In this document: positions 1 to 35,833 of the stretch, piece by piece
Layout: every line of letters starts with the position of its first letter
Position numbering within the stretch: position 1 is the first letter of the stretch
Assembly: GCA_043775535.1 (NCBI GenBank)
Contig: JAYVSG010000127.1
Location: forward strand, 1 to 44,829
DNA: 44,829 bases
Reading direction: 5' to 3'
Source of the DNA: Candidatus Omnitrophota bacterium
GTDB lineage: Bacteria; Omnitrophota; Gorgyraeia; Zapsychrales; Fredricksoniimonadaceae
Position numbers and translations under genes: made by a program
The notes under the pieces: generated by a model
The model's input: only the letters and a program-made list of their open reading frames with translations
Database searches by the model: none
What the model was told of the DNA's origin: nothing

Positions 1-495
1 GGACAGCAGATGGCAGCAGCGCAACAGATGCAGGCCGCCCAGCTCCTGATGGGCGCGCAGGCCGCGCAAGCCGCACAGGAAGCGCAGCAAGCAGCGCTCG
101 TGTCGAAGGCTGGTCGTCCCTATGAATCGGTTGACCCCTCGCAGATCGAAGACGTGGTTGACATATCTGAAGTTTGGCAAAGCCTTGAGAAAAGCAGCAG
201 GGCGTGGACACTGTTGATCGACCGCCAGGCCAAGATCATGACCGTCGATGAATTCATCAGCCGTTTCCGGAAGCAAGGTGTGCGCATCGGCAAACCCGGC
301 CAGTTCTATGCCCAGATGGTCGAGGACCTGGCATCCCAGAATCCCCGCATGCTCGAGGCCCCTTTCCAGCAGATCATCCAGATGTTGGCCGTCATGGAAT
401 ACGATTTTGACAATGGCACCGACCGCGATGCCCTGGCCCGCAAGGTGCTTGGCCTGCAGGTGTATGAGCAGAACAAAAAACGTTTAGGAAGATAG
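1..495 (+). CDS. Hypothetical protein, 5'-truncated by the window edge. Gln/Ala-rich low-complexity stretch followed by a globular C-terminal part.
   Basis: Frame 1 is open from nt 1, with no stop before the listed ATG at 10, through to the stop at 493-495. The stop lies 1 nt before the glpK start. No family motif recognised. Confidence 0.5.
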   Translation, partial: GQQMAAAQQMQAAQLLMGAQAAQAAQEAQQAALVSKAGRPYESVDPSQIEDVVDISEVWQSLEKSSRAWTLLIDRQAKIMTVDEFISRFRKQGVRIGKPGQFYAQMVEDLASQNPRMLEAPFQQIIQMLAVMEYDFDNGTDRDALARKVLGLQVYEQNKKRLGR

Positions 496-4809: not shown

Positions 4810-5741
4810 TGACCGCATTGTTCAAAGCCGCCTTTGAGAAACGCATTCCCCTGCGTGAGCACACCAATGCCCTGCGCCTGGTCAATGGGCGGGGCGACGG
4901 TCTCGATGGGCTCATTCTTGAGGAATACAACGGCCATTTCGTGGCCCAGGCTTTTGAATCCCGCTGGGTTGCGCAGGCAGAGCTGATCGCAGAGATCGTG
5001 CGCACCCACTTCAAACCGCAATGCCTCCTGCTCAAGGACCGTTCCACGACGGCCTCATCTGCTGCCGACGACATTACATCCCGCTTCCTGATCAAGGGGG
5101 CGTCCCAAACAACAGTCCAAGAATATGGGCTTTCGTTCGCGGTCGATGTGCATGACGGATTGAATGCGGGATTGTTCCTGGACATGCGCGCCAATCGTCG
5201 GATGGCAGGCGCGGTCTGTAAGGACAAAAAGGTGCTCAACTGTTTTTCCTATACCTGTTCCTTCGGCGTGCATGCGCGCGCCAATGGTGCCGCCGAGGTC
5301 TTGAATGTGGACTTGAGCCGCAATTACCTTAAGCGCGGGCAGGACAATTATGCTTTGAATAAGTTTGCGCCTGGACGCGGTGAGTTCCTTTGTTTTGACG
5401 CGGTAGAATTTTTGGAAAAAGCGGTCAAGAAGGCCAATTGTTTTGATGTGATCATCATCGATCCGCCGTCCTTTGCGCGGGGGGACAAAAAGACCTTCCA
5501 GGTCAAGCGCGACCTCCCGGCGTTATTGGACAATGCCGTGAAGGTGATCACTCCTGGCGGGCATATCCTTGTTTCCACGAATTTCAACGGCATTGCGCAT
5601 ACGGACCTCAAGGGCATGTTAAAGCACGCCGCTGACAGCCGGCCCATCAAGGACATGGCCCCCATCGGGCAGGACAAGGATTTTCCCGGCACCAATACCT
5701 TCAAAGAAAGTTATCTGGCGGGCGTATGGGCATCATTTTAG
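4809..5741 (+). CDS. Class I SAM-dependent RNA methyltransferase (RlmI/RlmK-like)
   Basis: 310 aa. LNCFSYTCSFGVHA (SAM motif I region) and IIIDPPSF (motif IV). TAATG overlap with the upstream gene. Confidence 0.7.
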   Translation: MTALFKAAFEKRIPLREHTNALRLVNGRGDGLDGLILEEYNGHFVAQAFESRWVAQAELIAEIVRTHFKPQCLLLKDRSTTASSAADDITSRFLIKGASQTTVQEYGLSFAVDVHDGLNAGLFLDMRANRRMAGAVCKDKKVLNCFSYTCSFGVHARANGAAEVLNVDLSRNYLKRGQDNYALNKFAPGRGEFLCFDAVEFLEKAVKKANCFDVIIIDPPSFARGDKKTFQVKRDLPALLDNAVKVITPGGHILVSTNFNGIAHTDLKGMLKHAADSRPIKDMAPIGQDKDFPGTNTFKESYLAGVWASF

Positions 5742-6433
5742 GCAAGGTCGCTTTGGAACGCGCCCTGTCCAAACTGGGTCTCGCATCGCGTTCACAAACA
5801 CGCCAATGGATATTGGAGGGACGGCTTGGTGTCAATGGCCGGACCGTCAAGGACCCTGATTTCCTAGTTGTTCCTGAGAAAGATGTTTTTACCGTCGACG
5901 GCAAGGCCCTGAAGCCAGCGGCCCGGCAGACCATCATGCTCAATAAACCCAAAGGCTATGTGACGACCAAGAGCGACGAGAAAGGCCGCAAGACCGTCTA
6001 TGATCTCTTGCCGAAAGAGCTGCATAATCTGCATCCGGTCGGCCGCCTGGACATGAACACCACCGGCCTCCTACTGTTGACCAATGACACCAAATTATCG
6101 AGTTACCTGACCGAACCCTCCAATGGCATTGAACGTGAATATGTCGTGAGCGTTGAAGGCAGGATCGAGGACAAGGACATTGAAGTTCTCTTGGCAGGCA
6201 TTGAGGACGACGGAGAGATCCTTAAGGCCAGTCAATTGACCGCGCGCAAGATCAGCGGCCGCGAATCACATTTGGATGTTATCCTGACCGAAGGCAAGAA
6301 CCGCGAGATCCGCCGCATGTTCAAGGCCATCGGCCATGAAGTGATCTCCCTTAAGCGCATTGCGTTTGGCACCGTCACCCTGGGCGATCTGCCGTCGGGC
6401 CAGTATAAGAATATCAGCATGGGTCAGCCATGA
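5726..6433 (+). CDS. Pseudouridine synthase, RsuA/RluB family (S4 domain plus catalytic domain)
   Basis: 235 aa. S4-like LERALSKLGLASRSQTRQWILEGRLGVNG and the catalytic HPVGRLDMNTTGLLLLTND motif. Confidence 0.85.
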   Translation: MGIILGKVALERALSKLGLASRSQTRQWILEGRLGVNGRTVKDPDFLVVPEKDVFTVDGKALKPAARQTIMLNKPKGYVTTKSDEKGRKTVYDLLPKELHNLHPVGRLDMNTTGLLLLTNDTKLSSYLTEPSNGIEREYVVSVEGRIEDKDIEVLLAGIEDDGEILKASQLTARKISGRESHLDVILTEGKNREIRRMFKAIGHEVISLKRIAFGTVTLGDLPSGQYKNISMGQP

Positions 6434-8044: not shown

Positions 8045-8617
8045 ATGAAATATTGTGCGATGGTCTTGATGACTGCGTCATTGCTCTTGAGCGGTGCCTG
8101 CCAAACGTATGCAGCAGGAGGAGAAACCATGCCCAGGAGCATTTATGATCTTACCGTCAAGACCATCGATGGCCAGGAGAAGTCCCTTGCGGATTACAAG
8201 GGCAAGGCGCTTTTGATCGTGAATACCGCAAGCCATTGTGGCTTTACCTCGCAGTACAAAGGACTGGAAGCCCTATATCAGGAATATCGGTCCCAAGGTT
8301 TCGAAGTCCTGGGTTTCCCGGCCAATAATTTCATGGGCCAGGAGCCGGGCAGTAATGAAGAGATCAAGAAATTCTGCGAGTTGAAATACAAGACCACCTT
8401 CCCGATGTTTGCCAAGATCAGTGTGGCTGGAGGGGATCAAGCCCCGCTCTATGCCTACTTGACCAAGGAGAGCCCTTTCCCGGGATCTATCTCCTGGAAT
8501 TTCAACAAGTTCCTGATCGACCCCACGGGCCGGGTGGCTGCGCGTTTTGATTCCAGGGTGACTCCCCAAGCGCCTGAACTGGTGGAAGAGTTAAAGAAGG
8601 TCCTGCCCAAGCCGTAA
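8045..8617 (+). CDS. Glutathione peroxidase family protein with N-terminal signal peptide (Cys type)
   Basis: 190 aa. LIVNTASHCGFTSQY, FPANNFMGQEPG and WNFNKFLID motifs. A hydrophobic N-terminal leader precedes the mature domain. Confidence 0.9.
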   Translation: MKYCAMVLMTASLLLSGACQTYAAGGETMPRSIYDLTVKTIDGQEKSLADYKGKALLIVNTASHCGFTSQYKGLEALYQEYRSQGFEVLGFPANNFMGQEPGSNEEIKKFCELKYKTTFPMFAKISVAGGDQAPLYAYLTKESPFPGSISWNFNKFLIDPTGRVAARFDSRVTPQAPELVEELKKVLPKP

Positions 8618-8653
8618 GTGGCATCAAGTATATATATATGGTATCCTTTCGGC

Positions 8654-11600
8654 ATGTTCCGCAAGGGTGCCATTTTTTGCCTTATCCTGTCCTTTTTCTC
8701 TTCGACCGTGATCGGGCCGGCCTATGCCCAGGGGGTGCAGGAATTGCCTGTGCCGGGTGCCATGGTTGCCTTAAGCCCGGCCTTTGAACCGGTCTTGCTT
8801 AAAGGCCTTAAGGTCGATCCCCAGAACCCATTCGCTTTTGATTTCATTGTGGATACCGGCAGCGATCCCGTCATTGCAAACGAAGAAAAGCAATCCCAAT
8901 TAAAAGCAGAGGCCGACACCCTGATCAAATATTTCATGGCCGCCATGACGGTGCCTGAGAAGGACCTGTGGGTCAACCTTTCGCCCTATGAAAAAGACCG
9001 TATGATCGCCCCTGATCTTGGGCAGACGGAAATGGGACGGGACATGCTGGCCCAGGATTATGTGCTCAAGCAATTGACCGCCTCGCTGATCTATCCGGAG
9101 AAAGAATTGGGCAAGACATTCTGGGACAAGGTTTATGCCAAGTCCCGCGAACTTTACGGCACCACCGAGATACCGGTCAATACGTTCAATAAGGTCTGGA
9201 TCGTCGCTGACCGCGCCGACGTCTTCGAACGCGGAAATACGGCGTATGTCACAGGTGCGCATCTTAAGGTCATGCTTGCGGAAGACTATACAGCTATACA
9301 GAAGCAGATAGTTAAAGCGGGTGACCCGAAGGCGGGGACCCCGTACGCCCGCAGCGTAAGCGAGGACGAACGGGGTGCCGCAGGGGCAGGACCCGCTTCA
9401 CTAGCTTCTCAGATCGTCCGCGAAGTCATCCTTCCTGAATTGGAAAAAGAAGTGAATGCCGGCCAGAACTTTGCGCCGCTTCGACAGATGTTCTATGCCA
9501 TGATCCTGGCCTCCTGGTACAAGACCGCCCTCAAGGATGCGGTCCTGACCCAGGTCTATGGCAACCAGGGTAAGGTTTCCGTCGGTGTCAATGCGATGGA
9601 TGAAGGGGAGAAGGACAAGATCTTCGAGCGTTACCTGCAGGCCTACAAGAAGGGTGTGTTCAATTATATCAAGGACACGGCCGCTCCCGATGGTACATCC
9701 ATCCCTCGCAAATATTTCTCCGGCGGTGCCGACTTTGCCATGCTGGGCCGACCTGGCTTCCTGCATCGCAGCCAGACCGAGCTGCCGGCATCCGGCCTGA
9801 TCACGGGCAAGGCCTTCAAGGTCAGCGGGGATGCGGCCATGAACAGCGGGTCGTCATCTGTGCCGGACCAGACGGAACATCCGGATTTTGGCAGAATGTT
9901 CGATGCGAATGCACTTCTTACCTTCACAAGAGAGGATGCATACATTGATCTTCACCATTTGGGAGCTGCCATCTGGGCGGGGTTTCAGAGCAACAAAGCA
10001 GGGGTCAAAGGGATCACCATTCAAGATAAATTTGTTCTGCCTAAGGCAATGTTTTATAAGCTTGACCCGGATGGATTGGCACTACCTCTGTCTCAAGAGG
10101 AGATATCCCGACTGCCTAAAGAGACAGGGGTTGTTCACTTGAGATTGGATGATAAGAACGAAGCGTTTGCCTTCTTGTCCGGCGGCACCATTGTACTGGC
10201 CACATCCGGTTTTTCGATCGCTCCGGAACAAGATGCGGGAGACCAGCAGGCGGTCATAGACCGCCAGCAGCCCTTATATGCCAAGATGGTTTTGCTCACG
10301 GATCCCCGGCAAGCCATACGCAAGATGCTTAGGGAAGAGTTTGAGAAAAAAGGAGCGGTGGTCACTGAATTTGTCGGTAAGGAAGAGGACATTGTGCATC
10401 ATATCAGGGGCATCGATCTGGTCGTCATGGATGCGAGTGATGGGGGAACGGAGGAATCCAAGGACATGGCTATAGAGACCGCCAAGTTCCTAAGTGCCCA
10501 GGGAACCCCCGTTATCATGTTTACGCAACAGGATCCCACAGAAATAAACGGAGAATTATGGCGCCGGGGGATAACGGCTTCGGTCAAGGTTGCCGTTGTT
10601 GCCAAACAGTCCGGGCCGGTAAATATCATGTGGCATGCACGGCGAATGATCGAGGAGAAGGACAAGGCAATGTTGAGCTTGGTCTCCAGACCGCAATTGG
10701 ATTTTATGACAGATGTGCAGCCGAGATTCGATGCATTTCAGAAAGCCATTGAAGAAGTCGAACGGCTCTATCAAAAGCCGTACACGGATAAAGAAGCCCT
10801 TGCCCTGCTTTATCAGGAGGCATGGAAGAACAGCGGGGATCAGGAATCTTTATGGAATGCCTTGGTGAAAATAGAAGGCCTGCAGGAGGGCTTTGACCAA
10901 TACGAGCTTTCTCTTTTCACGCCGAAATTTGGTAATGTCGTCGACAAAGAAGATGTGCCGGAGATCCTTGAGGCGCACATGCAGCGGTCCATGGACCAGG
11001 CATATGCCCGGATGAAGGTCACTTTTGACGAGAGGATCAAAGATGCAACGGATGGAGAGCTGGAGGGCTTTTACGGTCTTTTTAGATGGGCACAAACAGA
11101 ATATCTGCGCGCCTTGGAAGATCCTGAAGATGCCCAGATAGGCGTGATGGCCATGTCCGCGCTTAATGCGGCACATGATTATTTTAGGGACAGAGCTCTG
11201 GATCTTGCAATGACGTCAAAGCCGGGCTCCCTTAAGGAGTCGATATCTAAGCGCCTAGCCCACTTCAGGTCTGAGGGCAATCATGCTATGGCGGACAATA
11301 TGATCGTGCTGATGGCTGTGCTGGTGCACGGCAATACTGGACCTATCGACCTTAAACAGTATGCAACAGAAGACAAGCTGCAAGAATTGATCGAAGATTT
11401 TGCATCAGCCGTTAGAAAGATGGGCAATGGCCCTTCAGCCTTGAGAGGGTTCTTAGCTCGGGGTTATCCTGTAGTTAAGAATGTAACGACCTTGGCGCCG
11501 GCATTTAATTTGGAAGCGCTTGTTGTATTCAGCGGTGTAAGGCATCGGGACTCCGCCATGACCGCCATTGTGGGCAGGGACGGTCTTTTGGCGCTGCCGG

Positions 11601-13192
11601 TGGGCGCGCGGGCCATATTGTTCACGGAGTCGGAGCATGACAAAGAGCAGCACCGTGACCGGGTGGCGACGGTTCTACGCACAGATGCCGCCAAAGGCAC
11701 CATTACGTTCGCGATCCCCATGAAAGGCTGGCCAAAAGACATCGAGGAGGAATATTTTGTGGATGAGTTTGGCGGGGAACGCAGGCTGAAGCTGATCAAG
11801 GCTATCCCATTGTCGAGCGAAGATGAAGCCACATGGGAGGAAGGCAAGGCGCTGCTCAAGAAGATACACGCGGAATTCAATAGGTTCAATGAATTTGGGC
11901 GAAGCGTGAGCGGGAATTTCAATGGGCTTGGGCATTTGATGGGAGGGCTCAATTCCGTTCTTTACCAGGAGTATTCCGATGTCATGGCCATGAATGCCAT
12001 GGACAAGGACTCGGATGAGGAAATGTTGACATTGCTTAAGATCATCCGCCGGCAGGTGGACAAATATTCGGACCAACAGGCGCGGTCAAAGATCTTGTCC
12101 GAGGCAAAAGATTTTCTGGCAAGATACAAGAACGTGCATGGAGATTCACGCGACGGCATGAAGAACACTTATTTTCTGTCGCTGTTCATCCAGGAAGTAT
12201 TTGAGAATGACGAGGAGTATGGGCATTTCGTCGACCATTTGAAGGTAGTCAAAGGTACGTTGGATGCCCATTCTGAGCGTATCAAAGACATTATCTCAGG
12301 GTTCTATCAACGCGACCAGCCCGATACTGTTCGAGACCCGGCCATGATCGGTGAATGGCGCAAGACGCGGCAGAACTTCATTTATAAATTCGCATGGGAG
12401 AGGGATAACGATAGTGTCATATTGGCCGTCAGTCCTGACTACCAGGACGGCGCCCGCGATGGACAGATCATTTATGAGATATTTCCCGTCCCATGGAAAG
12501 GGCAAAGTGAACAGGATATCATGGGCTTATATAAGGGGCATGTCACACTGACCCTAAAAGAGGGGGTGGTGACCGGCTGGCAGTCATTGGCTATTTCACC
12601 GCGCCGTGAGAAGGAGATGCCTTGGCTTGTTGGTTTCCTGGAGAGCAAACTTGAGACCTTAAAAGGAAAAATCTTATACCATGAGGCTACGTTCAGGGAA
12701 TTCGTTGAGACCTTCGCTCCCCAAGAGAAGGAAATTGCGTTGAGGGTTATGCAGATGTATCTCACCTATCTTGCAGGGGATCTGCCTGAATTCAACAAAG
12801 CCTCCCTTCCCGATAGTGTGGACATCTTCTTGGAGCGTTTTACACATACATTTCATGCTAAAACATTTTCCGATTTTAGGGATGTCGCCTTCTTGATGAG
12901 CCCTCTGAAGTATCAGGAAATGGTCGACTTGAGCATTCGTAATATATACACACAGATGACAGGGAGGCTCTTGGTCGAGTTCCGTGACCCGGCCATGGCC
13001 GTTACACCCGGCGGTATCGACCTTGACCGCGCCAAGATGCAGATGAATATTGAGAAAGAGGGCGAAGGGGTCAGGATGAAACTCAACCAGGAGCTGGTCG
13101 ACCGCATCCGGCGCCAGGGTTTTGACGGCCTGGAATTCAATATCCGCACCATTGTGCCTATCATCGACCTCAGGCAATTCCTATTTGCTTGA
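8654..13192 (+). CDS. Giant secreted protein of unknown function (~1,512 aa)
   Basis: Single uninterrupted ORF, 8618-13192 in the track. I prefer the ATG at 8654 because it yields a canonical Sec leader, MFRKGAIFCLILSFFSSTVIGPAYA|QG. No catalytic family motif recognised. Confidence 0.8.
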   Translation: MFRKGAIFCLILSFFSSTVIGPAYAQGVQELPVPGAMVALSPAFEPVLLKGLKVDPQNPFAFDFIVDTGSDPVIANEEKQSQLKAEADTLIKYFMAAMTVPEKDLWVNLSPYEKDRMIAPDLGQTEMGRDMLAQDYVLKQLTASLIYPEKELGKTFWDKVYAKSRELYGTTEIPVNTFNKVWIVADRADVFERGNTAYVTGAHLKVMLAEDYTAIQKQIVKAGDPKAGTPYARSVSEDERGAAGAGPASLASQIVREVILPELEKEVNAGQNFAPLRQMFYAMILASWYKTALKDAVLTQVYGNQGKVSVGVNAMDEGEKDKIFERYLQAYKKGVFNYIKDTAAPDGTSIPRKYFSGGADFAMLGRPGFLHRSQTELPASGLITGKAFKVSGDAAMNSGSSSVPDQTEHPDFGRMFDANALLTFTREDAYIDLHHLGAAIWAGFQSNKAGVKGITIQDKFVLPKAMFYKLDPDGLALPLSQEEISRLPKETGVVHLRLDDKNEAFAFLSGGTIVLATSGFSIAPEQDAGDQQAVIDRQQPLYAKMVLLTDPRQAIRKMLREEFEKKGAVVTEFVGKEEDIVHHIRGIDLVVMDASDGGTEESKDMAIETAKFLSAQGTPVIMFTQQDPTEINGELWRRGITASVKVAVVAKQSGPVNIMWHARRMIEEKDKAMLSLVSRPQLDFMTDVQPRFDAFQKAIEEVERLYQKPYTDKEALALLYQEAWKNSGDQESLWNALVKIEGLQEGFDQYELSLFTPKFGNVVDKEDVPEILEAHMQRSMDQAYARMKVTFDERIKDATDGELEGFYGLFRWAQTEYLRALEDPEDAQIGVMAMSALNAAHDYFRDRALDLAMTSKPGSLKESISKRLAHFRSEGNHAMADNMIVLMAVLVHGNTGPIDLKQYATEDKLQELIEDFASAVRKMGNGPSALRGFLARGYPVVKNVTTLAPAFNLEALVVFSGVRHRDSAMTAIVGRDGLLALPVGARAILFTESEHDKEQHRDRVATVLRTDAAKGTITFAIPMKGWPKDIEEEYFVDEFGGERRLKLIKAIPLSSEDEATWEEGKALLKKIHAEFNRFNEFGRSVSGNFNGLGHLMGGLNSVLYQEYSDVMAMNAMDKDSDEEMLTLLKIIRRQVDKYSDQQARSKILSEAKDFLARYKNVHGDSRDGMKNTYFLSLFIQEVFENDEEYGHFVDHLKVVKGTLDAHSERIKDIISGFYQRDQPDTVRDPAMIGEWRKTRQNFIYKFAWERDNDSVILAVSPDYQDGARDGQIIYEIFPVPWKGQSEQDIMGLYKGHVTLTLKEGVVTGWQSLAISPRREKEMPWLVGFLESKLETLKGKILYHEATFREFVETFAPQEKEIALRVMQMYLTYLAGDLPEFNKASLPDSVDIFLERFTHTFHAKTFSDFRDVAFLMSPLKYQEMVDLSIRNIYTQMTGRLLVEFRDPAMAVTPGGIDLDRAKMQMNIEKEGEGVRMKLNQELVDRIRRQGFDGLEFNIRTIVPIIDLRQFLFA

Positions 13193-13216
13193 CAATGTGT
13201 CCCCTTTCCTTATAAT
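13189..13216 (+). promoter_or_regulatory. Consensus sigma70-type promoter upstream of carA
   Basis: TTGACA (13189-13194), a 16-nt spacer, then TATAAT (13211-13216). It lies ~70 nt upstream of the carA ATG, and the -35 overlaps the stop of the giant gene. Confidence 0.6.
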
Positions 13217-29829: not shown

Positions 29830-31059
29830 TCAGCGGCAATAGCTGCTGGTCGCATAGGCGCCGGTGCTGCAGCGGTCTTCGGTGGGAGAGCCCCAGCCTA
29901 GGCCGGATTTCCGGGACCCGCGGGGGGCTTTGCCCGGTTCATCCAAGGCTTTATCGAATTCCTGGTGTTTAACCGAGATGGGGGCCCCTTCCTTACCGAA
30001 TTCGGTGACATGGCGGTAGGTGCAGCCGGAAGTCAGGAGCAGGGCCAGGATGGCGATGCAGGGAAGGCCCGTCAAACGGAGCTTCTTGAATTCTGGGAAG
30101 CTGATGAGCTGGCGGTTCTGTTCATCCCAAAGGCGGAATTTTAGGGATTTGAAACTGCCCCGCAGGCTGATGGGCTCGATCTGCTGGAAGAGCACATTTT
30201 CGTCATGGCAGCGCTGCAGCATGTAATTCGGGATGCGCGGGCTTAAGTGGTGGATATGGTGGTAGCCGATATTGCCCGTGAACCACTGGAGCACCTTGGG
30301 CAGTTTGTAAAAGGAGCTTCCTTTCAAGGCCTCGGTCACATAATCCCAATCATCCTCACGTTCCCAGTACACCCCTTCGAATTGGTGCTGCACGTAGAAT
30401 AGCCATACACCGGCGGAACAGGCCATGATGAGCATGGGCAGCTGGATGAGCACATAGGCCTTCCACCCGATGAGGCCGTGCATGGCCAAGGCCATGGCCG
30501 CGATGCCGACGTTCGTCAGCATGATGCTGCGGAATTTTTTCCATCCGCCGTGGGGCCGGGGGAAACGGCGCAGCAGGATGAACATCACCGATGGACCGAT
30601 GACAAAAAGACAGAGGGGATTGCGTGCAAGGCGGTAGAAGGCGCGTTTGATGGGCGAAGCGTCCACGTATTCCTTGACGGTCATGGTCCAGATGTCGCCG
30701 ATGCCGCGCTCGTCGAGGTTTCCGGCGGAGGCGTGGTGCTGGGCATGTTCGTGCCACCAGTAATCATGGGGTGTGAAGGTCAGGACGCCGGTGACGAAGC
30801 CCCAAAAGCGGTTGGCCTTCTGCGACTTGAAGAAAGACAGGTGACCGCAATCGTGGAAGATGATGAAGATGCGCACCAAGAACCCGGCTCCGAGGACGCA
30901 CAGGGCCAGGGTGAGCCAATAGGACACGGCCAGGCTCAGGTATGCAAAGTACCAGAGCACGGCATAGGGGACCAGGGTATTGATGAGCTGCCAGGAGGCC
31001 AGCCGCCGGTCGGCGATCTGGTACTTGGCGATGATTTCTTTCCAGTTTTGGACGGTCAT
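29830..31059 (-). CDS. Membrane fatty-acid desaturase with an ~85-aa C-terminal extension
   Basis: 409 aa. Three His boxes: HDCGH, HEHAQHH and HHIHHL. The extension starts KKLRLTGLPCIAILALLLTSGC. Confidence 0.85.
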   Translation of the reverse strand: MTVQNWKEIIAKYQIADRRLASWQLINTLVPYAVLWYFAYLSLAVSYWLTLALCVLGAGFLVRIFIIFHDCGHLSFFKSQKANRFWGFVTGVLTFTPHDYWWHEHAQHHASAGNLDERGIGDIWTMTVKEYVDASPIKRAFYRLARNPLCLFVIGPSVMFILLRRFPRPHGGWKKFRSIMLTNVGIAAMALAMHGLIGWKAYVLIQLPMLIMACSAGVWLFYVQHQFEGVYWEREDDWDYVTEALKGSSFYKLPKVLQWFTGNIGYHHIHHLSPRIPNYMLQRCHDENVLFQQIEPISLRGSFKSLKFRLWDEQNRQLISFPEFKKLRLTGLPCIAILALLLTSGCTYRHVTEFGKEGAPISVKHQEFDKALDEPGKAPRGSRKSGLGWGSPTEDRCSTGAYATSSYCR

Positions 31060-31099
31060 GTGTAGCTAAATTATCATGTAAGCCGGCGTTAGGCTACTA

Positions 31100-31525
31100 T
31101 TATTCAACCAGCTTCGCGGTCATGGTGATCTTGGCATTCAACAGCCGGGAGATGGGGCAGCCCGTCTTGGCGTCATTGGCCAATTTCTCGAACGTCGCTT
31201 CATCCGTGCCCGGGACTTCAGCGCTGACATCCAGATGAACACCTGTCACGGTCCAGCCCTGTTCTAATTTTTCAAAACTGACCGTCGCGGTGGTGTCGAT
31301 GCGTTCGGCCGTCAGGCCGGCATTTCCCAACTGCACAGACAAGGCCATCGAGAAACATCCGGCATGTGCCGCACCGATCAACTCTTCAGGATTGGTGCCT
31401 GCAACACCTTCAAATCGTGTATTAAAGCCGTAGGGGGCCTTTGATAGAGCGCCGCTTTCCGTCGAGATGATGCCTTTGCCGTCTTTCAATGATCCAAGCC
31501 AAACTGCGGATGCCTTCTTTTCCAT
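31100..31525 (-). CDS. OsmC/Ohr family peroxiredoxin-like protein
   Basis: I prefer MEKKASAVWLGSLKDGKG at 31525, which has an AAGGAG RBS. Two conserved Cys are present (AHAGCFSMAL and TGCPISRLL). 141 aa. Confidence 0.85.
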   Translation of the reverse strand: MEKKASAVWLGSLKDGKGIISTESGALSKAPYGFNTRFEGVAGTNPEELIGAAHAGCFSMALSVQLGNAGLTAERIDTTATVSFEKLEQGWTVTGVHLDVSAEVPGTDEATFEKLANDAKTGCPISRLLNAKITMTAKLVE

Positions 31526-31826
31526 GAGATCTCCTTTATTAATATGTGATACAAGATAGCATAAATCAAAAACCCGCTGCAATTTATTTAATTGGAGAGG
31601 GTGGATAGTTCTCAGGTCCAACGGGAGCATTGTCATCGACCTGAGATTGCATTACACAAAATCCCATTAGAGGTAAGACGCCTGCTGGTATGAACAGGCT
31701 TTAAAACATCAGCATATTTTAAGAAATTGAGATAGCGACAACATAATTTTTCAGCATGCACGGCAAGTACACTAAATTGATGGACTGTCACCAAGATCGT
31801 ATTTTGATACAGCCTAGGTCTGTGGA

Positions 31827-32564
31827 TTATTCTTCAATGGCTTTTTTGAATCGTTCCCTAAGAGTCTTTTTAAGATCGTCATTCATATTTTCAAATTCTT
31901 TTGTTCTAACTGCAATTTTTTCTAAGGCCACTTTCTTATCGCCATAAGTATTCAGAAGATCTTCTACTTCTTGAAAATTACCAGGCTGGACCGAACGCAC
32001 ATCATGAATGATTATGTATAGTCGTGTTTGCATTAGCAGGATGCGGAGGTAATATTCAGCTAGCTCTAGTCTTTGCTTCAGGGAAGCTAAATCTTCATCA
32101 GAAATTTTGCCGTGTGATTTAATTTTGTCACTTAATAGATCCTGAGCCTTATTTACTATTCCCACTAAACCGATATATCCTTCAAGTGCCGTCCAATATT
32201 CTTGTCCCGAGTATTTATATAGTAAAGGATTAGTTATTACTGATGCCGATATGATTGTATCTAAATGAAAGAGTTGAAACGCATCTGTACTATTGCCTTT
32301 CAAGGCATCAATCTTTGACTGGTTATCACTGACTTCAACCATAATAGCTGTGAAGCTTCTTTTAAAAATATTTGCTTCAAATTCGTATCCCCTTTTAGAT
32401 TCTAATTGGACTGCAAGGAACACGCCGGCAAATGTAGCGGTTAGCGTAAGTACAAATGCCCATACTAATTCTGGAGCATTAACTGAGAGATGTTTTCCAA
32501 GAGGTTTTATTAGGCAAAGAACCCCGAAAATGATTGCTCCAATTCCAGCGTGAGTGATATTCAT
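31827..32564 (-). CDS. Hypothetical 2-TM membrane protein with a helical C-terminal domain (AT-rich orphan gene)
   Basis: 245 aa. Two N-terminal hydrophobic helices, then a charged helical region. GGAG lies 9 nt upstream. Composition is visibly AT-rich compared with the neighbours. Confidence 0.6.
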   Translation of the reverse strand: MNITHAGIGAIIFGVLCLIKPLGKHLSVNAPELVWAFVLTLTATFAGVFLAVQLESKRGYEFEANIFKRSFTAIMVEVSDNQSKIDALKGNSTDAFQLFHLDTIISASVITNPLLYKYSGQEYWTALEGYIGLVGIVNKAQDLLSDKIKSHGKISDEDLASLKQRLELAEYYLRILLMQTRLYIIIHDVRSVQPGNFQEVEDLLNTYGDKKVALEKIAVRTKEFENMNDDLKKTLRERFKKAIEE

Positions 32565-32668
32565 AATTTTCTCCGATAACGTTTTCTATGGGAACGGGAT
32601 TTCTAGAATCACTGCAACTGCTTTAATTTTCAAGCAGTTAACGTTAAGAAGTCCCGAAGAGGTGCATT

Positions 32669-32745
32669 TGGTAGCCCCAACCGGATTTGAACCGGTGTTT
32701 TCTGCCTGAGAAGCAGACGTCCTGACCAGGCTAGACGATGGGGCC
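32669..32745 (-). tRNA. tRNA-Glu (anticodon CTC) with encoded CCA
   Basis: Folded by hand on the minus strand. Acceptor GGCCCCA/TGGGGCT (G1-U72). D stem GTCT/GGAC. Anticodon stem TCTGC/GCAGA with loop TTCTCAG. T arm ACCGG-TTCAAAT-CCGGT. Ends A-CCA. Confidence 0.85.
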
Positions 32746-32778
32746 TTAGGAAGACATAAAATATAACACAAGGCGGGT

Positions 32779-33306
32779 TTACGTCAACTGTTTATTGCCA
32801 CCGGCCAGCAGGCGCAATTGGGCGGGGGTGAGCATCCAATTGAAGGTCGCAGATCCGGGTCCGGAAAGCTTTTCTGCCCGCAAACTGCAGAGGCCGCCTT
32901 TTTTGAATTCGATGGGGATGCTTTGGCCGCCGACTAGCAGGAAGGACACCATGCCGCTCAGGTGCGGCTCATGTCCGACGAGTAAAATGCGTCGGGCTTT
33001 TGGGAAATGTGTTGTGAGTTCTTTGAGCAGGTCTTCAAAAGCGGCAAAGGGGGTCAGCTGTTCCGTGATCCGGATGTCGGATGTCCGGATCTTGAAGACA
33101 GAAGCCACGATGGCGGCGGTCTGTTCTGCCCGCACATAGGGGCTTGAGAGCACAGCGTCAAAGGAGATGTCCAGCGCCTTCATGCCGCGCGCATTGTTCT
33201 GCATCTTGGCCCGGCCTTCATCCGTCAGCGGGCGCCGGCTGTCGTCTTCATATCCCGGTGTGCCGCGTTCAACGGCGATCGCATGTCTTAAGAAATATAG
33301 TTCCAT
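32779..33306 (-). CDS. sixA: Phosphohistidine phosphatase SixA
   Basis: 175 aa from MELYFLRHAIAVERG (RH motif), plus SSPYVRAEQTA and VGHEPHLS. The 358-aa listed ORF is an upstream read-through with no coding support. Confidence 0.85.
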   Translation of the reverse strand: MELYFLRHAIAVERGTPGYEDDSRRPLTDEGRAKMQNNARGMKALDISFDAVLSSPYVRAEQTAAIVASVFKIRTSDIRITEQLTPFAAFEDLLKELTTHFPKARRILLVGHEPHLSGMVSFLLVGGQSIPIEFKKGGLCSLRAEKLSGPGSATFNWMLTPAQLRLLAGGNKQLT

Positions 33307-33370
33307 GGGGTTCCGTTCCTGTTTATAATAGCATATCGCTATTAGAAGCGGAAGGAAAGGACGGCGGTCC

Positions 33371-33760
33371 ATGCGCATTTTTCTTTTGATCTGTGTATTC
33401 TTAACCGGCAGCCTTGCACACGCGGCCACCCATGGGTTTGACCTCAAGATCACGCTCAAGGACGACATCATCAAGGTCGGACATCCGGTCGAGGGCAAGG
33501 TCGCTGTGACCAACATGTACGGCGCCGGTCTGCCGGCCATCTTTAACATCGAATTGTTCCATGAAGACAGCCTGGTCGATCGAATAACGACCTCCGTCCC
33601 CAAGGTCCCCAACGGCATTACGGAATTTTCCTTTAAGAGATTCGGAATCCCGTTCTTTAACGAAGGCCCCGACAGCATCGGCACCTGGCGCATCCGGATC
33701 ATCCAGCAGAACATCGACGCTGAAGATGCGGCGCAGGCGCTTTTCGCGATTGTCCCGTGA
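33371..33760 (+). CDS. Small secreted hypothetical protein (beta-rich)
   Basis: 129 aa with signal peptide MRIFLLICVFLTGSLAHA|AT. No family motif recognised. Divergent from sixA. Confidence 0.6.
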   Translation: MRIFLLICVFLTGSLAHAATHGFDLKITLKDDIIKVGHPVEGKVAVTNMYGAGLPAIFNIELFHEDSLVDRITTSVPKVPNGITEFSFKRFGIPFFNEGPDSIGTWRIRIIQQNIDAEDAAQALFAIVP

Positions 33761-33790
33761 CATTGCCGGATGGGTAATGTATAATCCGGC

Positions 33791-35833
33791 ATGCACGAAT
33801 TGATCTTGGTACAGGACCTGTCTATTGTCATGGCCGTCAGCGCGGCCACGGTCATCCTGTGCCGTTTGTTACATTTGCCTGTTGTCCTGGGCTATATCCT
33901 GGCCGGGTTCATCATCGGTCCGCACACACCGCCGTACTCCCTGATCCATGAAGTGTCGACTATTCACATTTTTTCCACGCTCGGTATTATCTTCCTCATG
34001 TTCTCGATCGGTCTGGAATTCAGCCTGACCAAATTGTCTAAGGTCGGGTTTGTGGCCGTGCTCGCGGCCGTGCTCGAGATCACCCTCATGATCTGGATCG
34101 GTTTCTGCGTTGGAAAATTGTTCGGCTGGTCGTCCATGGACAGCATCTTCCTGGGTGCCATCCTGTCCATTTCCAGTACCACCATTATTGCCAAGATCCT
34201 CATGGAGACCAAGAAGATCGACGAGAAATTCGCCCAGGTGATCCTGGGGATCCTGGTGGTCGAAGATGTGCTGGCGGTGGTCATCATCGCCATCCTCTCC
34301 GGTATCGCCAACACCGGGACCCTAACCCTGCATGAGGTCAGCTGGGCCATGCTCAAGGTCATCATGTTCATCGCCGGACTCCTGGGCGGCGGGCTCCTGA
34401 TCGTCCCGCGCATCCTGGCCTATGCGCAGCGTTTCCATTTGTCCGAGATGATGGTGATGGTGGTCTTGGGGCTGTGCCTGGGCGTTTCCTTCCTGGCGGC
34501 CAAAGCGGGTTTCTCCGTCGCCTTGGGTGCGTTCTTGATCGGCGCCATCATCGCGGAAACAAAGCAATCCCACCAGATCGTCCTTAAGATGGAATCCATC
34601 CGCGATATGTTCACGGCCATCTTCTTCGTTTCCGTCGGCATGTTGATCGACCCTGCACTCCTGCAGCAATATTGGCTGCCGGTCCTCGTCATCACCCTGG
34701 TGACGATCTTAGGTAAGGTCTTCGCCTGCTCGCTCGGCGTGTTCCTCACGGGGAACAATGCCGCGACTTCCCTTAAGGTGGGCTTGGGGCTGGCGCAGAT
34801 CGGGGAATTCTCTTTTATCATCGCGCAGCTGGGACAGAACACCCAGGTGACCAGCTCCTTTCTTTATCCCGTCGCTGTCTGTGTTTGTGCGCTGACCACC
34901 ATTTCAACACCGTTCTTGATGAACCATTCTGATCGCATCACACGCATGCTCAAAGGTTTCGCCCCGGAGCAGGTGCTGGATGTGGCGGGGCTCTACACGC
35001 CGTGGATCGCCAAGATCACCGAGGGCGGCATCAACCAGCGCGGCAAAGCGCTCATCCTGCGGGACCTTGCCAAACAATTGCCCATGCTGGCGTTCTATGT
35101 ATTCGGTGCAGTGGGCGTGTACATGCTGGCATTGAAATTCAAGCCTGTCCTGGCCATGTCCGACGGACCATATTGGCCCATCATGGTCGCCGCCATGCTC
35201 CCGTTCCTGATCGGCTGTGCCTACACCATGGACAAGATCCTCTGGGAAGTGCTGTTCCTCAACCTGGTGGGCCCACGCAATGAGCTGTACCGGTCAAAGA
35301 ACGCAGGGTCGATCGTCCACAATATCCTGCGCTTCCTCGTGGCCCTCTTGACCGGGCTGGTCTTCACCACCATCATTTCGTTCTTCGCACCAACGAGCCA
35401 TCTGGGCGCGGCCATGCTCGTCGTCATCCTCATCTGCGGCGTGCTTCTGTGGCGTTCCGTGAGCAAGGCCCACGAGCATTTTGAAAGTATCTTTTTGAGC
35501 ATCTTTGACCGTGGGGCCAGCGAGGATGAAGGGCAGGCCAAGGTCAACCGTGAACAGTTCGTTGAACTTTTGCGCGGTAACAAGGCATTGGAATTCGAGA
35601 CCCAGGACGTGATGGTGCCGTACCATCCGTGCGCCTTGAACGTAAGCATTGCAGAATTGAATTTGAGGGCGCAGACGGGGGCGAGCATCGTGGCCATTTA
35701 CCGTGATGAAGAGTCCCTAGCTAATCCCGGCCCGCAGACCAACATCCTGCCGGGCGATGTGCTCCTGCTCATCGGCAGCGAAGAACAGCTGAAATCCTCT
35801 GTCCAATATTTACGTGGAAAAATGACTACCTAA
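33791..35833 (+). CDS. Cation:proton antiporter (CPA2/Kef-type) with extra TM segment and C-terminal TrkA-C domain
   Basis: 680 aa with a polytopic Na+/H+-exchanger-like N-terminal ~390 aa. C-terminal LNLRAQTGASIVAIYRDEE...ILPGDVLLLIGSEEQL is TrkA-C-like. Confidence 0.85.
   Translation: MHELILVQDLSIVMAVSAATVILCRLLHLPVVLGYILAGFIIGPHTPPYSLIHEVSTIHIFSTLGIIFLMFSIGLEFSLTKLSKVGFVAVLAAVLEITLMIWIGFCVGKLFGWSSMDSIFLGAILSISSTTIIAKILMETKKIDEKFAQVILGILVVEDVLAVVIIAILSGIANTGTLTLHEVSWAMLKVIMFIAGLLGGGLLIVPRILAYAQRFHLSEMMVMVVLGLCLGVSFLAAKAGFSVALGAFLIGAIIAETKQSHQIVLKMESIRDMFTAIFFVSVGMLIDPALLQQYWLPVLVITLVTILGKVFACSLGVFLTGNNAATSLKVGLGLAQIGEFSFIIAQLGQNTQVTSSFLYPVAVCVCALTTISTPFLMNHSDRITRMLKGFAPEQVLDVAGLYTPWIAKITEGGINQRGKALILRDLAKQLPMLAFYVFGAVGVYMLALKFKPVLAMSDGPYWPIMVAAMLPFLIGCAYTMDKILWEVLFLNLVGPRNELYRSKNAGSIVHNILRFLVALLTGLVFTTIISFFAPTSHLGAAMLVVILICGVLLWRSVSKAHEHFESIFLSIFDRGASEDEGQAKVNREQFVELLRGNKALEFETQDVMVPYHPCALNVSIAELNLRAQTGASIVAIYRDEESLANPGPQTNILPGDVLLLIGSEEQLKSSVQYLRGKMTT

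What the first reader, a model, noticed from the sequence alone, without database searches (positions are those of the whole stretch)
8654..13192. Orphan ~1,512-aa Sec-secreted giant protein between housekeeping operons
This is the largest gene in the window and I cannot attach any catalytic or structural family to it. It has a textbook Sec leader (MFRKGAIFCLILSFFSSTVIGPAYA|QG). A ~370-aa N-terminal region follows, beginning LPVPGAMVALSPAFEPVLLKGLKVDPQNPFAFDFIVDTG, and then about 1,100 aa of mixed alpha/beta sequence with no simple tandem repeats. It sits tightly between gpx (36 nt upstream) and the carAB promoter, which overlaps its stop. That placement makes it look like core chromosome rather than an island. 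From memory, the N-terminal block and the C-terminal tail resemble uncharacterised large proteins of uncultivated Omnitrophota-like genomes, but I cannot verify this here.
Basis: partly seen in the sequence, partly recalled or inferred. Interest (0 to 1): 0.7.

Follow-up and report, generated by a model that had tools for sequence, protein, structure and literature searches.

The report
Exported cap–cargo–cap modular protein, Omnitrophota
This 1,512-residue gene is not a true orphan: it is one member of a very large, undescribed, Omnitrophota-only family in which a secretion leader, a conserved head domain and a conserved 65-residue tail frame a string of swappable, cysteine-free modules separated by a four-residue "DxAM" motif, and here all five modules are unique.

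Summary
The ORF is real (8654..13192, +, 1,512 aa), and the neighbours and the carA promoter are as described. It matches no Pfam, NCBIfam, PHROG, PADLOC or PDB family. Its two ends are not orphan. Residues 1-~396 (leader + N-cap) and 1445-1512 (C-cap) are 50-68% and 30-60% identical to at least 3,812 proteins; every named hit is from Omnitrophota. In all of them the N-cap is N-terminal and the C-cap is at the extreme C-terminus. What lies between differs completely: glycolytic enzymes, kinases, receiver and HTH domains, or nothing recognisable. The query's ~1,050-aa middle has one weak relative among 1.84 billion representatives. A motif, D-x-A-M, punctuates the family. It is 25-54 times over expectation, falls between Pfam domains and never inside them, and marks where homology stops and restarts. 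The query has seven copies, which define five modules. Family proteins are nearly cysteine-free (0.08-0.1% against 1.1-1.2% background; the mature query has none). The N-cap model has no structural match. Best reading: an exported modular chassis that displays or delivers exchangeable cargo. The export route, the role of DxAM (candidate processing site) and the destination are inferred, not shown. I found no published description.

The parts
8654..8728 (+). Predicted Sec/SPase I leader, aa 1-25 (MFRK / GAIFCLILSFFSSTVIG / PAYA|QG). It contains the protein's only Cys.
   Evidence: (108 of 114 family members pass the n/h/c heuristic). The equivalent segment of P0016 is a confident helix in the model.
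8729..9841 (+). N-cap, aa 26-396. Conserved family domain: LPxPGxMVxLSPAxEPvLiKGlkvxPxNPF ... LWVNLSPYEKDR ... NTFNKVWI ... PRKYFSGG, then a short beta segment ending in DAAM.
   Evidence: 50-68% identity to at least 3,812 proteins. 59 invariant columns. AF2 model pLDDT 74, pTM 0.71, with long helices plus one long beta-hairpin. No PDB or BFVD fold match.
9731..9742 (+). DxAM site 1 (DFAM, aa 360-363), directly after KYFSGG. Homology to relatives most often stops at aa 358.
9830..9841 (+). DxAM site 2 (DAAM, aa 393-396). End of the extended N-cap; this site is conserved across the family consensus.
9842..10660 (+). Cargo module 1 (aa 397-669), orphan. Residues 545-593 look receiver-like by eye but this is not significant.
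   Evidence: no homologues; REC profile score -3.6 bits.
10661..10672 (+). DxAM site 3 (DKAM, aa 670-673).
10673..11200 (+). Cargo module 2 (aa 674-849), orphan.
11201..11212 (+). DxAM site 4 (DLAM, aa 850-853).
11213..11548 (+). Cargo module 3 (aa 854-965), orphan.
11549..11560 (+). DxAM site 5 (DSAM, aa 966-969).
11561..12334 (+). Cargo module 4 (aa 970-1227), orphan.
12335..12346 (+). DxAM site 6 (DPAM, aa 1228-1231). The only cargo homology, to P0121 and P0003, starts exactly here and at a DxAM in both partners.
12347..12985 (+). Cargo module 5 (aa 1232-1444). Shared with two other family proteins, where it occupies a different ordinal position.
   Evidence: q1225-1368 matches P0121 84-254 (E 4e-17), and q1228-1366 matches P0003 492-670.
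12986..13189 (+). C-cap, aa 1445-1512. Begins with DxAM site 7 (DPAM), then PGGIDL ... and a small beta-beta-alpha-beta-alpha domain at the extreme C-terminus.
   Evidence: always 0-39 aa from the C-terminus in hits; GGID invariant; pLDDT 62-85 in the P0016 model; HSPs start at 1444/1445.
13189..13216 (+). Consensus sigma-70 promoter (TTGACA-16-TATAAT, 12 of 12) overlapping the stop codon, presumably for carA. It is context, not part of the protein.

Best explanation
The gene encodes one member of a very large, so far unnamed, Omnitrophota-restricted family of exported 'cap-cargo-cap' proteins. A Sec-type leader takes the chain out of the cytoplasm. A conserved ~370-aa N-cap with no detectable structural relative, together with a conserved ~65-aa C-cap, forms the invariant chassis that handles anchoring, assembly or onward delivery. 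Between them sits a string of domain-sized cargo modules, each preceded by the peptide D-x-A-M. Modules are gained, lost and reordered between these junctions, so close relatives share caps but not cargo. In other members the cargo is a recruited whole enzyme or regulator that has been purged of cysteine. In this gene it is five lineage-specific modules of unknown activity. SHOWN: the architecture, the family size and taxonomic restriction, the enrichment and inter-domain position of DxAM, module shuffling, cysteine avoidance, and the absence of any known family or fold. INFERRED: actual export, that the caps are the export/display machinery, and that DxAM is a processing or hinge site. Cleavage at A|M would release modules with native-like N-termini.
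For: Family and architecture: at least 3,812 hits cover only 20-29% of the query. The N-block is at the N-terminus and the C-block is 0-39 aa from the C-terminus in the top 119 hits. Every hit and locus that carries an organism name comes from an Omnitrophota MAG or a TPA bin labelled 'uncultured Planctomycetales'. 60 complete N-cap...C-cap genes were recovered in an independent metagenome sample. Cargo is variable: the query middle has no word-sharing homologue and one weak partial hit among 1.84 billion representatives. Hit middles carry PFK, HK+PGI, enolase, PGK, PPDK, TAL, ADK, PGM, REC, HTH and others. DxAM: 458 observed against 19.7 in shuffles. Internal sites number 326 against 13 expected. 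The density is 3.23 per 1,000 aa against 0.06 in background ORFs of the same loci, with 0 in the 12,317 aa of the other window ORFs. All sites lie between Pfam domains in six enzyme-bearing members. Homology ends at q358 and restarts at q1444/1445. The shared module starts at a DxAM in all three proteins that carry it. Module order is swapped between P0015 and P0049, and the His-phosphatase module runs DxAM-to-DxAM in P0051 and P0079. Selection acts on the peptide, not the DNA or translation initiation. Export: leader heuristics pass in 108 of 114. There is 0 Cys in 1,486 mature residues against 1.23% background, P about 1e-8. The family has 0.076-0.1% Cys against 1.11% background. There is no other TM segment. 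No known family or fold.
Against: No experiment or proteome shows export, cleavage or localisation. The signal-peptide call rests on a home-made heuristic because no SignalP or DeepTMHMM was available. Much of the family's recognisable cargo (ATP-, NAD- or PEP-dependent enzymes, DNA-binding HTH, RNAP alpha-CTD, receiver domains) has no obvious substrate outside a cytoplasm, which sits awkwardly with simple secretion. No dedicated secretion or protease gene is linked to the family genes. AF2 confidence for the N-cap is moderate, and N-C contacts could not be examined because coordinates are not exposed. The HSP-start test for DxAM junctions was only weakly positive (8 of 176 against 3.7 expected). 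This gene's cargo occurs on a single contig and cannot be cross-checked against a second assembly.
Confidence: 0.55

Rival explanations
1. Effector injection. The caps form a translocation device that carries the cargo across the envelope of a prey or host cell. DxAM processing then releases cysteine-free enzymes and regulators that reprogram the victim's metabolism and transcription, working like a protein-level counterpart of phage auxiliary metabolic genes.
For: The cargo needs a cytoplasm, yet the proteins carry Sec leaders and avoid Cys. Omnitrophota are described as ultra-small epibionts or predators (PMC10066038; PMC12583861, citing Kizina 2022). The PGI and ADK cargos keep their catalytic signatures. 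The top Foldseek hits for the N-cap, although insignificant, are nearly all ClyA-type pore-forming toxins. Hypervariable cargo fits an arms race.
Against: There is no significant fold match (TM <= 0.17). No linked secretion or injection genes were found. No toxin-like cargo was seen. Nothing shows contact with prey. Delivering whole glycolytic enzymes into a victim has no precedent.
Confidence: 0.2
2. Inner-membrane-tethered cytoplasmic scaffold. The hydrophobic N-terminus is an uncleaved anchor, and the enzymes and regulators act in the producer's own cytoplasm as membrane-attached metabolons.
For: The cargo repertoire is cytoplasmic in character. The 2026 Omnitrophota preprint favours a cytoplasmic-face reading for the TM-only giant proteins that carry the same Pfam content.
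Against: The leader has basic residues on its N-side and a conserved AxA site 2-3 residues before the conserved domain. This predicts N-in/C-out topology and cleavage. A ten-fold Cys depletion is not expected for cytoplasmic enzymes of an anaerobe. Ordinary uncapped copies of such enzymes exist in the same genomes, for example PFK and FBA next to P0006.
Confidence: 0.15
3. Variable cell-surface coat or adhesin. The caps anchor the protein on the cell surface, and the cargo is displayed and diversified to bind prey or evade phage. Enzyme domains serve as binding scaffolds rather than catalysts.
For: Supporting features are the leader, the Cys-free composition typical of many surface-layer and secreted proteins, multi-copy and tandem genes, and singleton cargo.
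Against: No adhesin, Ig-like, repeat or dockerin domains occur in this protein. The PGI and ADK signatures are retained, which argues for catalysis. No known anchoring motif is present.
Confidence: 0.08
4. Artefact: an assembly chimera or a decaying pseudogene whose middle is meaningless sequence.
For: The cargo has no homologues and lower GC3 than its surroundings. The protein is known from one contig only.
Against: A 4.5-kb uninterrupted ORF carries both caps in the correct order and frame. Seven family-typical DxAM sites fall at domain-sized spacing. The composition is globular, with no low complexity. Cys avoidance extends through the cargo. Module 5 is shared with two other family proteins and begins exactly at their DxAM sites.
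Confidence: 0.02

Closest known systems
Polymorphic toxin/effector proteins (CdiA with its VENN motif, Rhs/YD with DPxGL)
   Same: They have a conserved delivery portion plus exchangeable domains. A short conserved peptide marks the junction where cassettes are swapped, and in Rhs proteins it is also the site where the protein is cleaved. They are multi-copy and lineage-specific. (Basis: established knowledge of these families.)
   Different: There is no TPS, Rhs/YD or other known trafficking domain. Several delimited modules lie in series rather than one C-terminal toxin. A conserved C-terminal cap follows the variable part. The cargo is housekeeping-type enzymes and regulators, not toxins. 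No immunity gene follows: the carA promoter comes immediately after.
MARTX toxins
   Same: Conserved N- and C-terminal regions flank a variable array of effector domains that are released by processing between domains.
   Different: MARTX toxins have glycine-rich repeats, a cysteine protease domain and type I secretion without a Sec leader. None of these is present here, and the family avoids cysteine altogether.
Omnitrophota giant 'multi-enzyme' proteins (West-Roberts et al. 2023 preprint 10.1101/2023.11.21.568195; 2026 preprint 10.64898/2026.06.07.730766)
   Same: They come from the same phylum and carry the same odd cargo repertoire (PGM/PMM, hexokinase, PPDK, REC, HATPase, methyltransferase, HAD, HEAT) in proteins predicted to have signal peptides or TM segments.
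   Different: Those proteins are >= 10,000 aa, often with many TM helices. Neither paper describes an N-cap, a C-cap, a DxAM delimiter or cysteine avoidance. Whether they are built on the same principle could not be tested here.
Viral and bacterial polyproteins
   Same: One ORF strings together independent functional units separated by a short recurring peptide. Here the M of DxAM lies about where the native start Met of captured enzymes would be, so cleavage would give native-like products.
   Different: No protease domain was identified in the protein or next to it, and cleavage has not been demonstrated.
ClyA-type alpha-pore-forming toxins (NheA, MakA, SmhA/B, AhlB)
   Same: Both show an elongated helical bundle with one beta-hairpin. 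Members of this group are the top-ranked Foldseek hits for both models.
   Different: The matches are far from significant (E >= 0.3, probability <= 0.06, TM <= 0.17), and the hairpin here is not markedly hydrophobic. This is a lead only.

Membership tests
Omnitrophota cap-cargo-cap family (unnamed; defined here) | N-terminal conserved ~370-aa domain (LPxPG...WVNLSPYE...NTFNKVWI...KYFSGG) directly after a leader | tested here: met
   50-68% identity to the top 119 hits, with 59 invariant columns.
Omnitrophota cap-cargo-cap family (unnamed; defined here) | ~65-aa GGIDL... domain at the extreme C-terminus | tested here: met
   q1445-1510 aligns to the last 60-70 aa of 107 of the top 119 hits. 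GGID is invariant.
Omnitrophota cap-cargo-cap family (unnamed; defined here) | Cargo punctuated by DxAM at domain-sized spacing | tested here: met
   Seven sites in the query against 0 in 12,317 aa of background. The family-wide enrichment is 25-54 fold.
Omnitrophota cap-cargo-cap family (unnamed; defined here) | Near-absence of cysteine after the leader | tested here: met
   0 Cys in 1,486 aa against 1.23% background. The family has 0.076-0.1%.
Sec/SPase I secreted protein | Basic n-region, 10-20 aa hydrophobic core, small-x-small cleavage site | tested here: met
   MFRK / GAIFCLILSFFSSTVIG / PAYA|Q. The heuristic passes in 108 of 114 relatives. No dedicated predictor was available.
Sec/SPase I secreted protein | Demonstrated cleavage and extracytoplasmic location | not testable with these tools
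   This needs proteomics or fusion reporters.
Tat substrate | Twin-arginine S/T-R-R-x-F-L-K motif in a long n-region | tested here: not met
   The query has RK, and most relatives have KK, KR or RK in a 3-5-aa n-region.
Lipoprotein | Lipobox [LVI][ASTVI][GAS]C at the end of the h-region | tested here: not met
   The only Cys (aa 9) lies early in the h-region in the context AIFC.
Known C-terminal sorting domains (T9SS CTD, PEP-CTERM, LPXTG, GlyGly-CTERM and similar) | Match to the Pfam/NCBIfam models; for the exosortase, sortase and rhombosortase (PEP-CTERM, LPXTG, GlyGly-CTERM) types, a TM helix plus basic tail | tested here: not met
   There are no Pfam or NCBIfam hits. The tail has no TM helix and ends ...FLFA (consensus LLGL) without a basic cluster.
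Autotransporter / two-partner secretion (type V) | C-terminal beta-barrel of >= 250 aa, or an N-terminal TPS beta-helix domain | tested here: not met
   No Pfam hit. The C-cap is ~65 aa and alpha/beta. The N-cap is mostly long helices.
MARTX / RTX toxins | RTX or MARTX glycine-rich repeats, a CPD protease domain, no Sec leader | tested here: not met
   No Pfam or NCBIfam hit. A leader is present, and there is no Cys available for a CPD.
ClyA-type alpha-pore-forming toxins | Significant fold similarity to the helical bundle plus hydrophobic beta-tongue | tested here: not met
   Best E 0.32, TM <= 0.17. For P0016, AhlB gives E 1.2.
Response-regulator receiver domain (in cargo module 1) | Significant match to a REC profile with the D...D...T...K constellation | tested here: inconclusive
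   Pfam gives no hit at E <= 1. A family REC profile aligns aa 545-593 but scores -3.6 bits.

The most novel reading that the evidence does not exclude
The N-cap and C-cap are a new protein-translocation chassis with which ultra-small predatory or parasitic Omnitrophota export strings of cysteine-free enzymes and regulators and deliver them into other cells. DxAM is the processing site that releases each module with a native-like N-terminus. The result would be an 'injected metabolism', with cargo captured as whole ORFs and shuffled in frame between DxAM junctions.
Probability: 0.2. Interest if true: 0.95.

Novelty: categorically new. Interest (0 to 1): 0.78.

Why it matters
Omnitrophota are widespread, uncultivated, ultra-small bacteria thought to live on or prey upon other microbes. 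How they interact with hosts is an open question, and so is why they encode strange multi-enzyme giant proteins. This family gives a compact handle on that question, defined purely from sequence. It has thousands of members and two conserved caps without a known fold. It has a four-residue delimiter that can be searched for, mutated and looked for in existing proteomes, and a cysteine purge that marks recruited enzymes as working somewhere other than the producer's cytoplasm. If the caps are an export or delivery chassis, that would be a new secretion or display principle and a natural system for in-frame domain shuffling. Even on the most conservative reading, it defines two new domain families and a new linear motif that account for several large 'hypothetical proteins' per sampled Omnitrophota genome.

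Tried and rejected
1. Curated families. Pfam, NCBIfam, PHROGs, PADLOC, and PDB sequences searched by phmmer and by profile all gave nothing significant. The Huntingtin and coiled-coil hits come from unalignable low-complexity middle columns of alignment A1, not from the N-cap.

2. Fold searches. The N-cap model and a full-length short relative were searched against PDB and BFVD with no significant match.

3. Receiver domain in module 1. This was my own impression by eye and is not supported.

4. Internal repeats among the five modules. There are none.

5. DxAM as an internal translation start or a DNA-level recombination site. Rejected: SD-like motifs are at control level (18% against 59% at true starts) and the D and A codons are mixed synonymous codons. 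The query's own sites also show no upstream nucleotide conservation.

6. A C-cap that occurs alone. The C-tail profile search returned mostly 60-136-aa fragments. The one inspected on a long contig is the 3' piece of a split family gene.

7. Conserved neighbours, such as a dedicated protease or secretion genes. None was seen around P0002, P0006 or in the window.

8. A second copy in the window. There is none.

9. HSP-start proximity to DxAM as a global test of junction use. The result was only weakly above random (8 against 3.7), so I rely on the Pfam-boundary and specific-pair evidence instead.

10. Source organism and independent contigs. The exact-match look-ups returned no further record.

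11. Literature. Seymour 2023, West-Roberts 2023, the 2026 complete-genome preprint, Williams 2021 and searches on 'polyprotein' and 'GGIDL' found no description of the caps or the motif. Kizina et al. 2022 is not held.

Full report
OBSERVATION. The ORF is real. It runs 8654..13192 on the + strand and gives 1,512 aa from the ATG; an in-frame GTG lies at 8618. It is the largest ORF in the window. The ATG start gives MFRK..., the N-terminus typical of its relatives. A perfect TTGACA-16-TATAAT promoter at 13189-13216 overlaps the TGA stop. The protein has no internal repeats. It has no low-complexity windows and no hydrophobic segment of TM strength beyond the leader.

NO CURATED FAMILY, BUT NOT AN ORPHAN. 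Pfam, NCBIfam, PHROGs, PADLOC and PDB sequences give nothing significant. The best 119 hits cover only 20-29% of the query. BLASTP mapping shows why. Query residues 1-~400 match at 50-68% identity, always at the N-terminus of the hit. Residues ~1445-1510 match at 30-60% identity, always within 0-39 residues of the hit's C-terminus. Residues ~430-1400 match nothing. Every hit that carries an organism name is an Omnitrophota/Omnitrophica MAG. A scan of one genome per GTDB species found 35 loci. All are from Omnitrophota MAGs or from TPA bins labelled 'uncultured Planctomycetales', and I could not verify that label. Several MAGs contribute 2-3 loci each, even though the seeds were query-specific. 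Tandem or adjacent copies occur in L008, L017, L019 and L035. In an independent metagenome sample, 9 of 80 loci hold a second family gene within 10 kb. The window has only one copy.

THE CARGO. What lies between the caps differs from protein to protein. The cargo found includes:
- glycolytic and related enzymes: phosphofructokinase, hexokinase + PGI, enolase + histidine-phosphatase + PGK, PPDK/PEP synthase, transaldolase, PGM/PMM, UDP-glucose pyrophosphorylase;
- other enzymes: malate synthase + isocitrate lyase, adenylate kinase, methyltransferases, HAD and HD hydrolases;
- signalling and regulatory domains: receiver domains, HATPase, CheB, HPr, XRE and other HTH domains, RNA polymerase alpha-CTD, sigma-54 AAA+;
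- repeat domains: HEAT and TPR;
- often nothing recognisable.

The query's own middle (aa 430-1440) has no word-sharing homologue. In an exhaustive phmmer search of 1.84 billion representatives it has a single partial hit: P0121, E = 1e-10, covering about 100 aa. P0121 turns out to be a fragment of another family member.

THE DxAM DELIMITER. The C-cap consensus begins D.AM....GGIDLn, and the query contains six more D-x-A-M tetrapeptides, at residues 360, 393, 670, 850, 966 and 1228, plus the one at 1445.
- Enrichment in the 120 proteins: 458 observed against 19.7 +/- 4.2 in shuffles.
- Enrichment outside the caps: 326 observed against 13 expected. This is the only abundant enriched pattern of its type.
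- Specificity: every fixed position is specific (D 8.6x, A 9x, M 19x), with N and S as minor variants of D.
- Independent sample: the density is 3.23 per 1,000 aa of cargo against 0.06 in other ORFs of the same loci. The other 12,317 aa encoded in the window contain none.
- Spacing: the median distance between sites is 175 aa, which is domain-sized.
- Position relative to domains: in six enzyme-bearing members no site falls inside a Pfam domain. The sites bracket the domains. P0029 reads DxAM343-[hexokinase 353-781]-DxAM786-[PGI 842-1331]-DxAM1363. P0079 reads DxAM980-[enolase 1001-1459]-DxAM1471-[His-phosphatase]-DxAM1865-[PGK 1886-2285]. From the fraction of each middle covered by domains, I estimate the chance of this at roughly 1e-5 to 1e-6, assuming uniform placement of sites.

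Homology to relatives most often ends at q358, two residues before DFAM-360, and restarts at q1444/1445, the D of the last DPAM. The one shared cargo module starts exactly at a DxAM in the query (1228), in P0121 (87) and in P0003 (492). It is the last module in the query but the first or second in the others. P0015 and P0049 carry the same two modules in swapped order at 81-84% identity. The His-phosphatase module runs DxAM-to-DxAM in both P0051 and P0079. A global test on HSP starts was only weakly positive (8 of 176 against 3.7 expected).

The motif is selected as a peptide. The D and A positions use mixed synonymous codons. SD-like sequences upstream are at the level of control internal Met codons (18% against 18.5%) and far below true starts (59%), so it is neither an internal start nor a DNA site.

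The M lies 3, 13, 22 and 53 residues before Pfam model position 1 of enolase, PGK, transaldolase and PGI respectively. From my memory of where those models begin on the E. coli enzymes, these offsets are about where the native initiator Met would be. That would mean cargos were captured as whole ORFs, and that cleavage at A|M would give native-like N-termini. This is inference.

EXPORT SIGNATURES. The leader (MFRK / GAIFCLILSFFSSTVIG / PAYA|QG) is conserved in design across the family. It has a short basic n-region, a core with median 15-aa hydropathy of 2.26, and a small-x-small site a median of 2.5 residues before the conserved LPxPG. By these criteria, 108 of 114 intact N-termini pass. It is not a Tat leader (KK, KR or RK rather than RR, with a short n-region) and not a lipobox leader. 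The mature query has no cysteine in 1,486 residues, against 1.23% in the other 34 window ORFs; P is about 1e-8. The family averages 0.1% Cys in the cargo of the 120 proteins and 0.076% over the 73,782 aa of the independent sample, against 1.11% in neighbouring ORFs. Recruited enzymes share this purge: the 1,523-aa hexokinase-PGI protein has none. At least the PGI and adenylate-kinase cargos keep their catalytic signature motifs. The enolase and PGK patterns that I recalled from memory did not match, so those are inconclusive. Strong cysteine avoidance is what one expects of proteins that function outside the cytoplasm or must travel unfolded (established knowledge). It is hard to explain for cytoplasmic enzymes.

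STRUCTURE. AlphaFold2 on the N-cap (aa 27-400, 52-sequence alignment) gives pLDDT 74 and pTM 0.71. The model has two short strands, then long helices, one long beta-hairpin (protein aa ~181-208), then three more long helices and a short beta segment before DAAM-393. Foldseek finds no significant match in the PDB (best E 0.32, TM <= 0.17) or in BFVD. The top insignificant PDB hits are almost all ClyA-type pore-forming toxins (NheA, MakA, SmhA/B, MakB). I record this as a lead only. A full-length model of the shortest relative (P0016, 842 aa) shows the leader as a helix and the same N-cap. Its middle is mostly low-confidence. Its C-cap is a small beta-beta-alpha-beta-alpha domain with pLDDT 62-85, again without a PDB match. 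Coordinates are not exposed, so contact between the N-cap and C-cap could not be tested. Profile searches of both caps against PDB sequences are negative.

CONTEXT AND COMPOSITION. Family genes have no conserved neighbours. P0002 sits between ribonucleotide reductase and a polysaccharide synthase. P0006 sits between shikimate dehydrogenase/prepilin peptidase genes and an AAA ATPase, in a genome that also has ordinary stand-alone PFK and FBA. In the window, the cargo has GC3 of 0.59 (0.54-0.65 across modules), against 0.65 and 0.72 for the caps and 0.65-0.74 for the neighbours. That fits faster turnover or a foreign origin for the cargo.

INTERPRETATION. Three things are shown. The gene belongs to a huge, phylum-restricted family with the architecture leader + N-cap + DxAM-delimited modules + C-cap. 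The modules are exchangeable units. The proteins bear two independent signatures of extracytoplasmic life. What is inferred is that the caps are an export, anchoring or delivery chassis and that DxAM is a processing or hinge site.

The main tension is that much of the family's recognisable cargo needs ATP, NAD, PEP, DNA or RNA polymerase. This tension motivates two rivals. The first is delivery into another cell's cytoplasm, which is attractive given the predatory or epibiotic lifestyle proposed for the phylum (PMC10066038, PMC12583861) but has no direct support. The second is a cytoplasmic-face membrane scaffold, which the leader topology, the AxA site and the Cys purge all contradict. A surface-coat reading and an assembly artefact are less likely, for the reasons given under the rivals.

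COMPARISON WITH WHAT IS KNOWN. In logic, the nearest systems are polymorphic toxins and MARTX toxins. Polymorphic toxins have a conserved delivery part, a short junction motif such as VENN or DPxGL, and swappable domains. MARTX toxins have conserved ends flanking effectors that are released by processing. Every defining feature of those families that could be tested is absent here (see the membership table). In content, the nearest are the Omnitrophota giant 'multi-enzyme' proteins described in two preprints. These share the cargo repertoire and the predicted signal peptides or TM segments, but neither preprint mentions caps, a delimiter or cysteine avoidance. I found no description of this family in the literature available to me. 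The Kizina et al. 2022 genome and proteome paper could not be read, so prior mention there cannot be excluded.

VERDICT. I rate the family as categorically new, with the caveat above about literature I could not read, and as of high interest. It offers concrete tests that can be run now, on existing proteomes and complete genomes, for how these ultra-small bacteria deploy enzyme-laden exported proteins.

Noticed in passing
window 13189-13216: A perfect 12-of-12 sigma-70 consensus promoter (TTGACA-16-TATAAT) whose -35 hexamer overlaps the TGA stop of the big ORF. It lies 68 nt upstream of carA, and no terminator-like site lies between the two genes.
   Followed up: partly
window 31001-33000: GC content drops to 0.43-0.46 against about 0.55 elsewhere. 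The region covers ORFs at 31100-31636, 31827-32564 and part of 32779-33855 on the minus strand. It may be a foreign insert.
   Followed up: no
L039, L040, L041 (IMG/VR contigs; match at 5001-5951): Three contigs classified as viral in IMG/VR encode the N-cap at 54-61% identity. These could be prophage-adjacent host DNA, misclassification, or real carriage by viruses.
   Followed up: no
C-termini of family members (alignment A3): A subset of C-caps continues past the LLGL end with a 5-15-aa spacer and a terminal L-A-[GSK]-V motif (LAGV, LASV, LAKV). The query lacks this and ends ...FLFA.
   Followed up: no
L038 1920-10765: On a 238-kb long-read contig, family genes appear split into adjacent ORFs: 1,358 aa + 126 aa separated by 4 nt; then 130 + 1,055 + 136 aa, a run not checked for family membership. 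The 126-aa piece is the C-cap. This indicates frameshift errors or pseudogenes, and it explains the 'stand-alone tail' hits.
   Followed up: partly
P0015 aa 381-725 vs P0049 aa 585-937: Two closely related family proteins carry the same two cargo modules in swapped order at 81-84% identity. This is a recent in-frame module permutation.
   Followed up: partly
window 8045-8617: The glutathione peroxidase upstream has its own hydrophobic N-terminus (MKYCAMVLMTASLLLSGACQTYAAG), so it too is probably exported or lipid-anchored.
   Followed up: no
L037 2710-5008: The genome that encodes the capped enolase/His-phosphatase protein P0051 and the capped proteins P0006 and P0064 also has ordinary uncapped PFK and fructose-bisphosphate aldolase genes. 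At least some glycolytic steps therefore have normal cytoplasmic enzymes alongside the capped ones.
   Followed up: no
window 10-495: The first ORF begins with a Q/A-rich low-complexity stretch (MAAAQQMQAAQLLMGAQAAQAAQEAQQAALV...) and contains no Cys. It was not examined.
   Followed up: no
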